From contig OZ024755.1 of NCBI GenBank assembly GCA_964016885.1, forward strand, positions 24,428,001 through 24,492,000: DNA of 64,000 bases, read 5' to 3'. The translations under genes were made by a program, and so were the position numbers. This document shows, piece by piece, positions 18,345 through 62,465 of the stretch. The stretch is from Eledone cirrhosa (lineage: Eukaryota). The notes beneath the pieces are model-generated. The model worked only from the letters and a program-made list of their open reading frames with translations, made no database searches and was not told the origin of the DNA. Each line of letters begins with the position of its first letter. Positions within the stretch are counted from its first letter, which is position 1.

Positions 18345-18591
18345 AAAATAAAGTTAAATAAAAAGTCAAATGTTTAAAATTTAGCTTCGTTTATTACTGC
18401 TATATATATTTCAGTGACAGCCATCTTTGGCTGTGACCTCTTCAGGCAGTCTGAATTAGTGTGGTATAGACAAGTACATATGTTGTTGAGGTGTATAATT
18501 TTATCAATACTCTGATATGCCCAGTTGCTGGATGGGTTGTTATTTCACTGAGGAACTGGAATCATATGATTCCAGTTCCTCAGTGAAATAA
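18345..18591 (-). mobile_element. Hammerhead-bearing short non-coding element, family H1 copy 1
   Basis: Reverse complement closely matches 55552-55773 and 61011-61224. Confidence 0.9.
18396..18450 (-). ncRNA. Minimal type I hammerhead ribozyme (H1)
   Basis: ACUGC-CUGAAGA-GGUCACAGCCA(AAGA)UGGCUGUCACU-GAAA-UAUAUA-UA-GCAGU. 5-bp stem I, stem II 10 of 11 pairs, palindromic stem III AUAUAUAU, AUA triplet. Confidence 0.85.
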
Positions 18592-18828
18592 GATCTGTCT
18601 ATTGTTTGTTGTTGTTGTTGATGTTGTTTAACCCTAGGTCGGTTGTGACATTACAGATCTATCATAAAAGACTTTCCATTGATGGCCCTCTCATCTTTTC
18701 CCTAGGCTTAGTGTACACTCTATTTAGCATTGGACTATATTTTTTAATGTGATCTGTTTCTTTGTCAAGACTATTGGGTAGAAACGGCCCAGCTCTTAAA
18801 ACCGGCCTGAGTATCCATTATATTGAGA

Positions 18829-18972
18829 GACTGCTGAAAGCCAGAGGTATGGTTTCACTGCTCAGTTAAGGTTACACAGACTAACAGATTGATGAGGGAC
18901 AGAGGTGTAGTTTCGTTGATCCCCTAACGTGACACTGACTAATAGACTGCTGGGGGACAGCGATGTGTTTTC
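18829..18972. repeat. Degenerate ~59-bp tandem repeat, about 2.5 copies
   Basis: Recurring GACTGCTG...CAGAGGTGT.GTTTC...ACAC.GACTAA. Confidence 0.6.
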
Positions 18973-19789
18973 AATGTATTATATTATCCATCAAAATCTT
19001 GATCTTACACATACATCAGTATAAAATCTCCGATTTCAAATTGATAGCGCATGAGAAAATTGTACATTTAATACTTAAGGATCTACAATATTCAATTCTT
19101 AAAGGCGTTAAATAATGTAAAACTACCGGACGTTCAGCATTTTATGTAGAATGATTGCTATCAACATGCATTTGCAAGTAAACATTTCTGTAAACATGTA
19201 TTCGTGAATAACATATATGCCTTTCATTTTAGTTCACAATTTCTCGTATTATACATGAGAAAACGCGGCGCATGAAACTTCACTTATCCTAGGGACCTAC
19301 TTCTCCGTGGTGTCTTTCTTTGCCGAGCAACAGTAATAAAAAAATGTTATATTATATTCCATTCCTTTTGACTTCGTAGCCAAGAATTATTTCATCAATT
19401 TGGCTTGTAAATCTAAGGATTTACGGTCTACACATAAGGTAATAGATATTCTTCATTATCAAAGGTTTCTATTTACCATTTACATATTTCTAAGAATTTA
19501 TTCATTTGAAGTCGTCATGTATATTTCTTTTCATGTGTCGACGTGTTAGTAATAGAATATATAAAATATATACATAGTTATGTATAGTTCTCTCTCTCTC
19601 TCTCTCTCTCTCTCTCTCTCTCTCTCTCTCTATATATATATATATATATATATATATATATATATGGTCCCGGGGCGCCGCATTGACATACGGCGTTTCT
19701 GGGGCATTTCAAAAAAGACCTGGCGGCGTCCGTCTCCTCTCCCGACCCGATGATTCCCCCAGAAAAGGATAGAGAGAGATATAGAGGAA

Positions 19790-20015
19790 GAATAGACCTT
19801 CAGTACTAGGCTGGTACTTCTTTTATCGACTTCGAAAAGAAGAAAGGCAAAGTTGACCTCGGTGGGATTTGAATTCAGAGAGCAGAGAGTCGAAACGAAT
19901 AACGTAAAGAATTCTATCCGACCTATTACACACAACATACAACCCCACCCCAAAATTTTGTGTGTGTAATGTTTGTTGTGTGTAATGGGCCGGATAGAAT
20001 GCTTTGCGTTATTCG
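19790..20015 (-). mobile_element. Family N-related SINE with inverted duplication of its head
   Basis: AAAGGCAAAGTTGACCTCGGTGGGATTTGAA on the plus strand. 19896-19940 is inverted at 19975-20015. Confidence 0.75.
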
Positions 20016-20456
20016 TATATATATACATATTATTCACACACACACACACACACACACACACACACACACATATATGCGATTACCTTCTCTGCTATTTCCT
20101 GTCTCCAACTTTTAAACATTGATTCACTTCTTTATTACTTCCGATCGCCCGTCTAACATTTGTGTCGTTATTACCAATTACAATATTTTTTTGAAATGAA
20201 AAAAGTAATGTATATATATATATAAATATATATTTATATATATATATATATATATATATATATATATAGAGAGAGAGAGAGATGTATACACACACATATA
20301 CATACATACATATATATATATATATATATATATATATATATATAAATATATATATATATATATATATAATATATATATGTGTGTGTGTATGTATATCTGT
20401 CTATGTATTTATGTATATACATATACGCATACTTACATACACACACATATATATCT

Positions 20457-59346: not shown

Positions 59347-61010
59347 AAACAATGAAAAAGTATCACGTCATTAATTTATCTTATTTTATTATTATTATTA
59401 TTATTTTTCGCTATTCATTTTTCAACCTCTAATTTATCATTGGTTAATAAATTTGATGTCACATCTTCTCCGAGATTGGAAGTTGTTGTTGTCTATTGTT
59501 GTCCGAATAAGGTCACCTATATGACATCAATTTCAGTTGCTATTTACCACCTGTTGACCGACAGTTGATCCCCTCCGATAGTGAGGTCACCCGTGGAATT
59601 AATTGCTTTTCAATCTCAGACAAGAATATCGGCGAATATTTTCCCCTGTATAAGATGTTTTGTGTATTGGGGAATTGTATGTATGTATGTATGTATGTAT
59701 GTATGTATGTATGTATGTATGTATGTATGTATGTATGTATGTATGTATGTGTGTGTGTATGTATATATGTATGTATGTATGTGTGTATGTATGTATGTAT
59801 GCGTGTGTTTGTATATGTGTGTACACAAATACTACATACACTCCCACACTCGCCCAGAATATATGTATATATATATATATATGTGTGTGTGTGTGTCTGT
59901 GTGTGTGTGTGTGTGTGTGTGTGTGTGTGTGTGTGTGTGTGTGTGTGTGTGTGTGCGTGTAGTAGTAGTAGTAGCAGTAGTAGTAGTAGCGTATATACGC
60001 ACACATACACCCGCACACACAGAGGTATATATATATATATATATATATATATATATATATATATATATATATATATATATATATATATATATACAGTGAG
60101 AGGAATCGTAATTACCGCTGTTGGAGCATGAAGAGCAGAGGAGGTAGTAGAGAAATAATTATCTGGGCGGAAATGTAGGCAGTCTGTGAGATTACTAGGA
60201 ATAAATAAATAAACAAATCTAATAAATAAATAAATATATATATATATATATATATATATATATATATATATATATATATATATATATATATATATATATA
60301 TATATATATATATAGTTGTAGGCTGGGAAGGTTGGTAAACAAAAGCAAATAGAAAAGCAGTCGTTGTAGACAAGTATAATCTAAACAAACAGTAACATAC
60401 AATCAAGTAGCCATGACAGCAAACAGGAAATTGAAGGCAGCCATTGTTGTAAGAGTCATTTTGGCCGACTGGATATGTTATTAGTTGTTTAGTTAATATA
60501 TTGTTGTTGTTGTTGTTGTTATCATTTTGATCTTTGCGTAGTGTGTTGTGATATCGTCTACCGCCACAGTCGTTGTGTTGTTAGGTCTCGTGACAAGTAG
60601 CTGGCACCATGAGGCAACATCTACCTCTGGGTTTACACTTCAGAGACTGAACGGGCAGACGAAAGGACGTTACAAATTTAATTGGTTGATTCCTGATGTT
60701 ATCAATCATATATATATATATAGTAATAATAATAAATTTGAAGACTAAAATCCAAAGAGGGCTCGATAAGGATAAATATATATCAAATATATAAGAACCG
60801 TAGAGCAAATATTTATTAAAATAATAGATTAAAGTTTAAGCAAAGAATCGGTGCTTTCACCCTTAACGGGATCTTCTGAAGATCCCGTTAAGGGTGAAAG
60901 CAGCGATTTTTTGCTTAAACTTTAATCTGTTATTTTAATAAATATATATATATATATATATATATATATATTTATTAAAATAACAGATTAAAGTTTAAGC
61001 AAAGAATCAC

Positions 61011-61311
61011 TCCAGTTCCCCAGTGAATTAACAACCCAACAAGGAACTGGGCATATCAGAGTATTGACAATATCATACACCTAAATAACATATGTACTTG
61101 TCTATACCATACTAATTCAAACTGCCTGAAGAGGTCACAGCCAAAGATGGCTGTCACTGAAATATATATAGCAGTAATAAACGAAGCTAAATTTTAATCA
61201 TTTGACTTTTATTTAACTTTATTTTACACTACTCCGGAGTAACCAAACCAACCTGCGCACTTCGTCGAGTGCTCCAGCCTGCATACTAAGGTGTTGGTAT
61301 ACAACCAACAT
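61011..61311 (+). mobile_element. Family H1 copy 3, most complete collinear copy (~300 bp)
   Basis: Body plus tail contiguous, no ORF, (TA)n nearby on both sides. Confidence 0.9.
61121..61175 (+). ncRNA. Minimal type I hammerhead ribozyme (H1)
   Basis: ACUGC-CUGAAGA-stem II-GAAA-UAUAUA-UA-GCAGU. Cleavage predicted after 61170. Confidence 0.85.
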
Positions 61312-61768
61312 AAACTCAAAATATATATATATATATATAATATATATATATAATATATATATATAATATATATATATATATAATATATATATATATAATA
61401 TATATATATATATAAATATATATACATATATATATATATATATATATATATATATATACATATATATATATTTATTCAGGTTTGAGGTTCACCACTGTAT
61501 AGAGCTGGTCTATTCCGTATGGTCAATCGTAATGCAATAATATAGAGAGTACTCAACGTAAAGCAGTTCAACCGTCTTTGTTTTTGTAGTTGGTGGTGCT
61601 CAACATTGGTGGTGCTCATATTGAATATTGATTATTACATTTTTTTAACTTCATCCTAGAAGTCTAAACACTGTAAAACACTGACTCCCAATATATTCAT
61701 CTCCGCTAAGATGCGGGTCCCTGTGAAAATTTTCTCGCGCTACTCCTGGCTTGACTGTGGTCTGACAT

Positions 61769-61957
61769 TAATTGTTTCTACTATTGGCACAAGGCCAGAA
61801 AATTACTCAGTACATTACTGGTACTTTATTTTATCGACCCCGTAAGGATGAAAGGCAAAGTTAACCTCGGCGGGATTTGAACTCAGAATGGCAAGGGCCG
61901 TAACTCTATGCGTCAAAGCATGGCGTCCGAACCTCTACCGATACTGCCAATCCACCG
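61769..61957 (-). mobile_element. Family N SINE, full length
   Basis: Reverse complement of 26911-27101. Confidence 0.9.
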
Positions 61958-62407
61958 ACATTAATATCGACCTTTCTTCCTCTTCCTTTCTATCTTCCTT
62001 CTTGTAGCCATCAACCCTTACTTTTCTACTTCTCTCTTCCCTTCCTTCTCTCCTCTCCTCCTCCCGCAGACTTATCTTCCTTCCCCCTCTTGCTTGCCTA
62101 TATCTGACCAGTAGTAGTTACCTTCCTCTTTTAGCTGACATTAACCCTGACTTCTCTTCTTCTTTCTTCCCCCTTCTTCTCCTTCCTTTCTTTCTTTCTT
62201 TTACCTTGTGTCATGGGATCGACGTTAACCTATGCTCCCATCTCTTTCTGGTTTCGTTCATCTGACCGGTAGTAGCATACTATAAAATTTAGCCACGTCA
62301 CTCCAGGGCGACCGGCTGAGGTTGAAGGAACAGAATAGCGGTCGCCCTCGGGTCTCGATTTTCAGCCCCATGGATTTTACCTATTACATTCACGTATTAT
62401 ATTTCGA

Positions 62408-62465
62408 ATACCTGATGATATCACCGGATTCATACGGAACCCGGTCATTGAAATGATCATAGTAT
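62408..62465 (+). ncRNA. Minimal type I hammerhead ribozyme (H5)
   Basis: AUAC-CUGAUGA-UAUCACCGGAUUC(AUACG)GAACCCGGUCAUU-GAAA-UGAUCA-UA-GUAU. Perfect palindrome AUGAUCAU. Confidence 0.75.

What the first reader, a model, noticed from the sequence alone, without database searches (positions are those of the whole stretch)
18396..62465. Many independent minimal hammerhead ribozyme families nested in (TA)n-rich DNA
Seen: six intact-looking type I hammerheads (18396, 26044, 53082, 55667, 61121, 62408) and about six variant or decayed ones (2015, 21865, 26340, 40567, 46868, 57603). Stems differ between families but the architecture is constant. Helix III is reduced to a palindrome or near-palindrome (AUAUAUAU, AUAUGUAU, AUGAUCAU, ACAUAUGU, ACAAUUGU). 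Most lie in short ORF-less islands between (TA)n tracts. Known: minimal type I hammerheads with palindromic helix III occur in Penelope-like element pLTRs and metazoan non-LTR retrozymes and cleave as dimers. Inference: this genome holds a dense, diverse and possibly undescribed set of non-autonomous ribozyme retroelements tied to (TA)n.
Basis: partly seen in the sequence, partly recalled or inferred. Interest (0 to 1): 0.88.

Follow-up and report, generated by a model that had tools for sequence, protein, structure and literature searches.

The report
Penelope ends with altered hammerhead cores
The hammerhead-shaped RNA motifs between TA repeats are real and are the cut-off tail ends of Penelope-type jumping genes (shown for half of the sites, likely for most others) in what is likely an octopus genome; it carries over 130,000 such motifs, including very successful families whose ribozyme core has a letter change predicted to weaken self-cutting.

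Summary
Observation confirmed; interpretation partly. A descriptor finds 8 of the 12 named sites (0.11 per shuffle); the other four are variant or decayed copies of hammerhead-bearing families. The 12 sites are 10 families, not 12. Six sites are 3' pseudo-LTR stubs of protein-coding Penelope-like elements (three Hydra-type families, one Neptune/Nematis-type). One (62408) belongs to an ORF-less 2.7-2.8 kb unit; five stay unlinked. None is a short tandem retrozyme. Hydra elements with hammerheads in (TA)n are published, including one from Octopus bimaculoides, and this scan noted the same bloom on other pieces of this genome. Beyond that: exact patterns give 136,025 motifs genome-wide (sample estimate about 2.9x10^5); 74,598 keep a C·C mismatch in helix II while the neighbouring pairs covary; and two protein-coding Hydra lineages, both with stubs in this window, spread with a changed core position 4 (CAGA 17,933 versus 71 canonical; CCGA 6,173). 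No copy's 5' end maps to the cleavage site (0 of 149). Cleavage and expression are untested. A known system with unusual variants that make the role of these ribozymes testable.

The parts
2015..2095 (-). Decayed type I hammerhead of an old dispersed family; no ORF link found
18345..18591 (-). Family 61121 pseudo-LTR stub (short 3' end against (TA)n, fold-back at its 5' end); intact hammerhead 18396-18450
21846..21971 (-). Fold-back stub between (TA)n; hammerhead 21864-21915 with 8-nt core CUGAACGA and helix III ACUUGAGU; no ORF link found
24956..25029 (+). Tail fragment of the CAGA-core (U4A) Hydra family
25991..26153 (+). Solo pseudo-LTR of a Hydra-type element; intact hammerhead 26044-26109 with C·C mismatch in helix II
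26291..26559 (-). Pseudo-LTR of a Hydra-type element; variant hammerhead 26339-26430 (core CCGAAGGA, helix III ACAAUUGU; helix I damaged in this copy)
40567..40666 (+). Decayed hammerhead of an old low-copy family (22 first-look candidates); no ORF link found
46868..46952 (+). Hammerhead with a 7-nt collapse that removes the 3' strand of helix I; family has a Hydra-type tail, no ORF link found
53031..53280 (+). Pseudo-LTR plus tail of a young family (99-100% identical copies); intact hammerhead 53082-53147 with C·C mismatch; no ORF link found
55444..55773 (+). Family 61121: inverted tail (55444-55547) then pseudo-LTR; hammerhead 55667-55721
57207..57374 (.).
57465..57825 (-). 3' end of a Neptune/Nematis-type element; intact minimal hammerhead 57603-57645
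60772..60975 (.).
61006..61320 (+). Pseudo-LTR plus about 95-nt tail of a Hydra-type element (4.1-kb unit with RT/GIY-YIG ORF elsewhere, L032); intact hammerhead 61121-61175
61469..62516 (+). 5'-truncated, partly inverted copy of an ORF-less 2.7-2.8 kb unit (interrupted by another repeat at about 61770-61960); hammerhead 62408-62465

Best explanation
These motifs are type I hammerheads in the terminal repeat (pseudo-LTR) of Penelope-like retrotransposons, left as 5'-truncated stubs in (TA)n: shown for six of the 12 sites, which continue into RT/GIY-YIG genes elsewhere in the genome, and likely for most others, one of which is an ORF-less unit that likely borrows the same enzyme. Inferred mechanism: the element's protein binds its RNA, nicks (TA)n and starts reverse transcription at one of two sites just downstream of the hammerhead (hence two fixed 3' ends per family). 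It copies back through the uncleaved hammerhead and usually stops or folds back early (hence solo and head-to-head stubs). The palindromic helix III is predicted to allow cleavage only when two tandem copies pair, probably with protein help, to release unit-length RNA. The stubs themselves are dead copies.
For: Hammerhead-ORF-hammerhead units: family 61121 in L032 (4.1 kb), CCGA group in L351/L352 (4.2 kb), CAGA family in L383 (3,259 bp, 645-aa open frame). ORF-to-hammerhead continuity in independent copies for 26044 (L254, L070) and 26340 (L262, L263, L204, L265); 17 of 45 local copies of 57603 lie just behind the end of a Neptune/Nematis-type ORF. The L032 model (pLDDT 72.3) has telomerase RT as top fold match (E 2.8e-9). 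Hydra motifs RWK/RWR, DKT, CxCx5C, CxxC and CxH are present and CCHH is absent. Two 3' ends per family, then (TA)n; inverted partial copies abut the 5' end. Helices pair without being required: 19 of 37 core-only types pair helix I (shuffled partners mean 3.4, max 10) and 25 of 37 pair helix II (mean 6.5, max 15). Internal initiation and uncleaved template were shown for an anole element (PMC11167929).
Against: No ORF link was found for 53082, 46868, 21865, 2015 and 40567 in about 1.5 Mb of fetched DNA, so some may be non-autonomous. No PLE coding remnant lies in the window itself. Pfam and PDB sequence searches gave nothing for the ORF; its identity rests on motifs and the fold match. Clades were assigned by motifs, not by a tree with reference elements. 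Units (3.3-4.2 kb) and tails (60-145 nt) are longer than published (<3 kb; 30-40 bp). Co-folding gave the dimer hammerhead for only 1 of 6 sites. No cleavage or expression data.
Confidence: 0.85

Rival explanations
1. The set is mainly independent non-autonomous ribozyme elements (retrozymes) that replicate through small circular RNAs and use Penelope enzymes in trans.
For: Family 62408 is an ORF-less 2,731-2,803 bp repeat-body-repeat unit with 96-99% identical copies and no tblastn hit to five PLE protein queries better than E 0.84. It has a Hydra-type hammerhead and tail. Five further families had no ORF link. Animal retrozymes were proposed to derive from PLE repeats (10.64898/2026.07.22.740005).
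Against: Six of 12 sites continue into RT/GIY-YIG genes. No short head-to-tail repeat of any unit appears in the window self-comparison; neighbouring copies in the genome hits are inverted or kilobases apart.
Confidence: 0.12
2. On function: the hammerheads of these elements need not cut at all for the element to spread. They are weak or dead ribozymes kept as a structure or carried along, and the CAGA and CCGA lineages would be natural loss-of-cleavage mutants.
For: CAGA is the master state of a family with 17,933 exact copies against 71 with CUGA, and its hammerhead fold is not the lowest-energy fold (-5.6 versus -8.8 kcal/mol). 0 of 149 copy 5' ends lie within 3 nt of the cleavage site. In an anole element, cleavage-dead mutants inserted normally in vitro. 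U4C considerably lowers activity in vitro in a viroid (PMC3088659).
Against: Among single core changes only U4C recurred across families in the local data. CCGA subfamilies keep all other core bases and show compensatory changes in helices I and II, which implies continuing selection. The viroid U4C variant stays infectious. Only about 2.6 of the 56 nearby 5' ends were expected at the site by chance, so the zero shows no enrichment, not depletion.
Confidence: 0.3
3. Chance matches produced by AT-rich, microsatellite-rich DNA.
For: Helix III palindromes such as AUAUAUAU resemble the surrounding microsatellite; about 4 of the 39 sample hits look doubtful.
Against: 8 hits versus 0.11 in the window and 39 versus 0.95 in the sample; reversed-pattern controls total 182 against 136,025 matches; every named site belongs to a dispersed family.
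Confidence: 0.01

Closest known systems
Hydra clade of C-terminal-endonuclease Penelope-like elements, including Hydra-1_Obim of Octopus bimaculoides (Craig et al. 2021, PMC8557442; section 11, passages and supplement part 2 read)
   Same: RT plus C-terminal GIY-YIG with RWK/RWR, DKT, CxCx5C linker, no CCHH; hammerhead in the 3' repeat with palindromic helix III and often U·U at the base of helix II; (TA)n target; inverted 5'-truncated copies and an optional tail.
   Different: Dozens of hammerhead types (58 clusters in 1.49 Mb) and over 10^5 motifs instead of one listed octopus family; longer units and tails; no CCGA or CAGA core and no position-4 C·C mismatch among the Hydra hammerheads in the supplement part read; an ORF-less 2.8 kb derivative.
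Minimal hammerheads of metazoan Penelope-like elements (Cervera and De la Pena 2014, PMC4209133; parts 1-2 and supplement passages read; Lunse et al. 2017 not held, known only through the review PMC6765202)
   Same: Many families per genome, mostly solo motifs from truncated elements, palindromic helix III, predicted to act as dimers; site 57603 fits the CUGANGAH-G...C-GAAA consensus.
   Different: Counts there were about 2,000-9,000 per genome; the core variant reported was U3-A8, not U4C or U4A (supplement search for CCGA found no such core; one file was not searchable).
Non-LTR retrozymes of animals (Cervera and de la Pena 2020, PMC7229834, passages and section 15; Li, Clavereau and Pollet 2026, 10.64898/2026.07.22.740005, part 1 and passages)
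   Same: Type I hammerheads in non-coding mobile repeats, up to 126,247 motifs in axolotl; proposed to derive from PLE repeats.
   Different: Those are tandem units of a few hundred bases; here copies are solo or inverted stubs of kilobase elements, and the one ORF-less unit is 2.7-2.8 kb.
Poseidon element PAc of Anolis (Frangieh et al. 2024, PMC11167929; parts 1-2 read)
   Same: Two reverse-transcription start sites explain the tail; AT-rich target; hammerhead protein-assisted and dispensable for insertion in vitro.
   Different: A different PLE clade; its tail is 30-40 nt, here 60-145 nt; nothing of the kind was assayed for these families.
U4C natural hammerhead variant of a viroid (cited in Perreault et al. 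2011, PMC3088659; passages and section 8)
   Same: Same core change, with reduced activity in vitro yet infectious.
   Different: Here it is fixed in several retroelement subfamilies with over 6,000 copies, and a second lineage carries U4A.

Membership tests
Minimal type I hammerhead of PLE type | Core CUGANGA ... GAAA ... UH in type I order | tested here: met
   8 of 12 sites by descriptor (one with an 8-nt core); the other four are variant or decayed
Minimal type I hammerhead of PLE type | Helices I and II supported by covariation | tested here: met
   Core-only test with shuffled partners: 19 of 37 versus 3.4, and 25 of 37 versus 6.5
Minimal type I hammerhead of PLE type | Short palindromic helix III | tested here: met
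   the CAGA family differs, with a 5-bp hairpin helix III
Minimal type I hammerhead of PLE type | Dimer fold favoured | tested here: inconclusive
   Co-folding gave the dimer hammerhead for 1 of 6 sites
Minimal type I hammerhead of PLE type | Self-cleavage after the UH triplet | not testable with these tools
   Needs an assay
Hydra-clade PLE (families 61121, 26044, 26340, CCGA group, CAGA family) | Single ORF with telomerase-like RT and C-terminal GIY-YIG endonuclease | tested here: met
   L032, L352, L383; TERT is the top fold match; only the C-terminal part was seen for 26044 and 26340
Hydra-clade PLE (families 61121, 26044, 26340, CCGA group, CAGA family) | RWK and DKT motifs, CxCx5C linker, CxxC and CxH, no CCHH | tested here: met
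   (RWR in two lineages; the 26340 linker cysteines are partly decayed in the copy read)
Hydra-clade PLE (families 61121, 26044, 26340, CCGA group, CAGA family) | Hammerhead-bearing repeat at both ends, inverted 5' copies, optional tail, (TA)n target | tested here: met
Hydra-clade PLE (families 61121, 26044, 26340, CCGA group, CAGA family) | RT phylogeny groups with reference Hydra elements | not tested
Neptune or Nematis PLE (family 57603) | [quoted passage not shown] | tested here: met
   L145/L267 ORF; Neptune versus Nematis not resolved
Non-LTR retrozyme | Short head-to-tail tandem units, each with a hammerhead | tested here: not met
   None in the window self-comparison; the tandem period of 62408 is 2.7-2.8 kb
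Non-LTR retrozyme | No coding capacity | tested here: inconclusive
   Met for 62408, not met for four families, open for five
Non-LTR retrozyme | Circular RNA intermediate | not testable with these tools
   No RNA run was listed

The most novel reading that the evidence does not exclude
Octopod Hydra elements have radiated into hammerhead classes not yet described: a dominant class (about 75,000 copies, some ten stem types) that keeps an unpaired C·C in helix II as a docking site for a tertiary or protein contact, and two lineages that replaced the 'invariant' U4 with C or A and still amplified to tens of thousands of copies. Either the element's own protein rescues these cores, or cleavage is dispensable for spreading; both outcomes would settle what Penelope hammerheads are for.
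Probability: 0.3. Interest if true: 0.72.

Novelty: new variant of a known kind. Interest (0 to 1): 0.5.

Why it matters
What hammerheads do in Penelope-like elements is still open (stated in PMC8557442; dispensable in vitro in PMC11167929). This genome offers a natural mutagenesis series: related young elements with canonical, U4C and U4A cores, with palindromic or hairpin helix III, and an ORF-less derivative, each countable and cloneable. It also holds more hammerhead motifs by exact count (136,025) than the highest figure met in the papers read (126,247, axolotl), and standard CUGANGA descriptors miss at least 24,000 of them. The basic system is known, so the value lies in the variants and the scale.

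Tried and rejected
Rfam scan of the window: the 150 rows shown were microsatellite-driven matches below threshold, with no hammerhead family among them; 211 lower rows were not shown. Pfam and PDB sequence search gave no hit for the ORF. RNA evidence: no RNA holder listed, which is no evidence either way; four contig sets were laid on the 61121 element and show only that it occurs in other runs. Cleavage-site signature in 5' ends: 0 of 149, no enrichment; BLAST end-trimming blurs ends by a few bases. A hypervariable patch right after the core was seen only in the CCGA group (0.13-0.22 versus 0.07-0.09) and weakly in 6 old copies of 2015, not in the other seven families; probably subfamily mixing, so not pursued. 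Core conservation for the CCGA loci is circular (they were picked by the core pattern) and was not used. ORF search upstream of 53082 reached about 1.9 kb without a coding match. A conserved tail hairpin was only partly supported: ACUC at the start of the tail in 8 of 11 distinct tails and GAGU downstream of it in 5, but energy folding did not give one common structure. First-look candidate numbers (22-2,735) were not used as copy numbers. Lunse et al. 2017 could not be read, so U4 variants or the helix II mismatch may be described there. Claims of 'not found in print' rest on searches (listings only) and on the supplement parts read; bioRxiv supplements and figures were not visible.
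Full report
Setting. The window is G000:C15:24428001-24492000 of a 3.0-Gb assembly, 35% GC and full of microsatellites. The only named organisms among 21 protein homologues of the element's ORF are Argonauta hians and Octopus bimaculoides, so the host is likely an octopod (inference).

Check of the observation. All 12 coordinates hold hammerhead-type sequence. 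A strict type I descriptor found 6 sites against 0.01-0.16 per shuffle; a relaxed one found 8 against 0.11. 18396, 55667 and 61121 are one family, leaving 10 families. Each of the 10 was searched in the genome and is a dispersed repeat: 97-100% identical best copies for 61121, 26044, 53082 and 62408; 94-97% for 26340; 82-94% for 57603, 21865 and 46868; 73-87% for 2015 and 40567 (at most the best 40 candidates were scored each time). Family alignments show that 57603 is intact, 46868 has a recurrent 7-nt collapse, 21865 and 26340 have variant cores, and 2015 and 40567 are decayed. To avoid circularity I took core-plus-palindrome matches in a 400-kb sample without requiring helices I or II: of 37 distinct types, 19 pair helix I fully (shuffled partners mean 3.4, max 10) and 25 pair helix II (mean 6.5, max 15).

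What they belong to. Family 61121 continues upstream through about 1.2 kb of untranslated sequence into an 856-aa frame and a second, truncated copy of the repeat (L032, unit about 4.1 kb). Its predicted structure (pLDDT 72.3, 21 sequences) matches telomerase RT first (E 2.8e-9). It has RWK (in the neighbouring frame; this copy has one frameshift), DKT, YRDD, a CxCx5C linker, YIG, CxxC and CxH, and no CCHH, the features given for the Hydra clade (PMC8557442 section 11). 26044 and 26340 join the C-terminal part of related ORFs in independent copies. 57603 lies about 230 nt behind a different ORF with a CX4CxxC linker, of Neptune/Nematis type, in 17 of 45 local copies. 62408 flanks a 2,731-2,803 bp body, 96-99% identical between copies, with no frame of 230 aa or more and no match to five PLE protein queries: a non-autonomous unit. 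For 53082, 46868, 21865, 2015 and 40567 no ORF link was found in about 1.5 Mb of fetched DNA; 46868 and 53082 share tail motifs and end spacing with Hydra families, and relatives of 53082 and 26044 are 74-81% alike. No PLE coding remnant lies in the window.

Anatomy and mechanism. Copies end at one of two places, about 40-55 nt or about 130-150 nt after helix I (195 for 62408; 150 and 210 for 57603), and then run into (TA)n. Many have an inverted partial copy at the 5' end. In the sample, 30 of 39 hits have (TA)4 within 200 nt downstream, against 23% of random positions. These are the published marks of PLE insertion. In an anole PLE, reverse transcription starts at two internal sites that define the tail, uses uncleaved RNA, and does not need hammerhead activity in vitro, while the hammerhead cuts only with protein present. 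I infer the same here: the stubs are early-terminated or folded-back cDNAs. Consistent with an uncleaved or circular template, none of 149 untargeted copies of six families begins within 3 nt of the cleavage site (56 began between -120 and +30, about 2.6 expected by chance). Dimer cleavage is predicted from the palindrome and from PMC4209133; co-folding reproduced the dimer hammerhead for only 1 of 6 sites. Expression could not be examined.

Scale. Forty 10-kb stretches at round coordinates on 24 large contigs gave 39 hits in 399.6 kb against 0.95 in shuffles, about 2.9x10^5 motifs if extrapolated (roughly 2-4x10^5; about four hits look doubtful, and the variant cores are not counted). Five non-overlapping exact patterns give a floor of 136,025: 107,506, 20,118, 6,173, 1,797 and 431, with 182 in reversed controls. 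The highest count met in the papers read is 126,247 for axolotl. The window is therefore typical of this genome. Clustering of 311 hits in 1.49 Mb gave 58 clusters, 24 with two or more members (this DNA was enriched for the families searched).

Variants. (1) Helix II mismatch. In 17 of 37 clusters read in one register, the fourth position after A9 is unpaired (C·C 11, C·U 3, U·C 2, C·A 1), while positions 2, 3 and 5 are unpaired in 1, 0 and 0 clusters and take several pair types. These 17 reduce to about ten stem types and probably share descent. Genome-wide, 74,598 of the 107,506 motifs have C·C and 418 have C-G; copy counts reflect a few masters, so the family-level covariation is the real evidence. 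(2) U4C. CCGANGA with helix III ACAAUUGU occurs 6,173 times. Of the first 100 listed CUGA matches of the same pattern, 16 belong to this group and most others to a separate family, so reversion is about 5%, as expected from CpG decay. The group codes for Hydra ORFs in 4.2-kb units and shows compensatory changes in its helices. The 26340 family (register ambiguous: U4C plus an extra base, or U4C plus A9G) and the stubs at 57207-57374 belong with it. (3) U4A. The fold-back at 60772-60975 belongs to a family with core CAGAAGA, a 3-bp helix II and a 5-bp hairpin helix III: 17,933 exact copies against 71 with CUGA, in a 3,259-bp unit with a Hydra ORF (L383). It is one family, so no covariation supports its fold, and the hammerhead fold is not its lowest-energy fold. 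Relatives with a canonical core and a similar hairpin helix III exist.

Comparison with what is known. Minimal hammerheads in PLE repeats, mostly solo and in many families, were described in 2014 (PMC4209133). The Hydra clade, its (TA)n preference, its hammerheads and one Octopus bimaculoides family were described in 2021. A U4C variant is known from a viroid, weak in vitro but infectious. I did not find U4C or U4A cores or the position-4 mismatch for PLE hammerheads in the searches and supplement parts listed under Tried and rejected, but Lunse et al. 2017 could not be read. Earlier notes of this scan report the same bloom on other pieces of this genome and U4C variants in other genomes; a sequence look-up with the U4A stub found nothing, and a word look-up for the mismatch found no note on it. 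These notes are not independent support.

Verdict. Real, and mostly explained: ends of Penelope-like retroelements, chiefly Hydra type, plus at least one ORF-less derivative. New variant of a known kind. Interest 0.5, carried by the scale and by the natural core variants, which make the function of these ribozymes directly testable.

Noticed in passing
window 60772-60975 and 24956-25029; L383:1027-4286: Very abundant Hydra-type family whose hammerhead-like motif has a CAGA core and a hairpin helix III; 17,933 exact copies versus 71 canonical.
   Followed up: yes
window 57207-57374: Back-to-back 3' halves of a hammerhead of the CCGA-core group.
   Followed up: partly
window 61176-61181, 62466-62471 and equivalents in L311-L340: An AATAAA or close variant directly follows helix I in many Hydra-type families; possibly a polyadenylation signal or part of a helix I bulge.
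   Followed up: no
window 61227-61320 and family tails: Tails of most Hydra-type families begin with ACUC and several carry GAGUGC further on; a shared start signal for reverse transcription is possible.
   Followed up: partly
window 10324-10904, 26905-27115, 40699-41217, 42132-42237, 61769-61966: A SINE-like repeat family of about 200 bp, several copies in inverted pairs; one interrupts the 62408 element.
   Followed up: no
window 35725-36749, 7199-7501, 9420-9905: Fragments of non-LTR retrotransposon reading frames (family labels would be from memory; not tested).
   Followed up: no
window 2757-3152: Frame resembling a mariner-type transposase fragment (resemblance recalled, not tested).
   Followed up: no
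window 723-1354 and 44019-45109: A 70-bp tandem array (9 copies, 97% matches) and a roughly 1.1-kb array with a 20-bp base period.
   Followed up: no
window 5407-5628, 55175-55396, 34778-34887, 22705-22823: Another repeat of about 220 bp that abuts (TA)n; not examined for a ribozyme.
   Followed up: no
L342-L350, L359, L360: A Hydra-linked family with a tiny helix II (two pairs above U·U) and helix III ACAAUUGU makes up most of the 1,797 canonical-core matches.
   Followed up: partly
L313-L338 (CCGA group): The first four bases after the core vary more than the flanks (0.22 versus 0.07) without matching change on the partner strand.
   Followed up: partly
L266:1989-5153; L143; L154: A 1,055-aa LTR-retrotransposon-type pol frame and helicase-like frames of probable Helitron origin in flanking DNA.
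   Followed up: no
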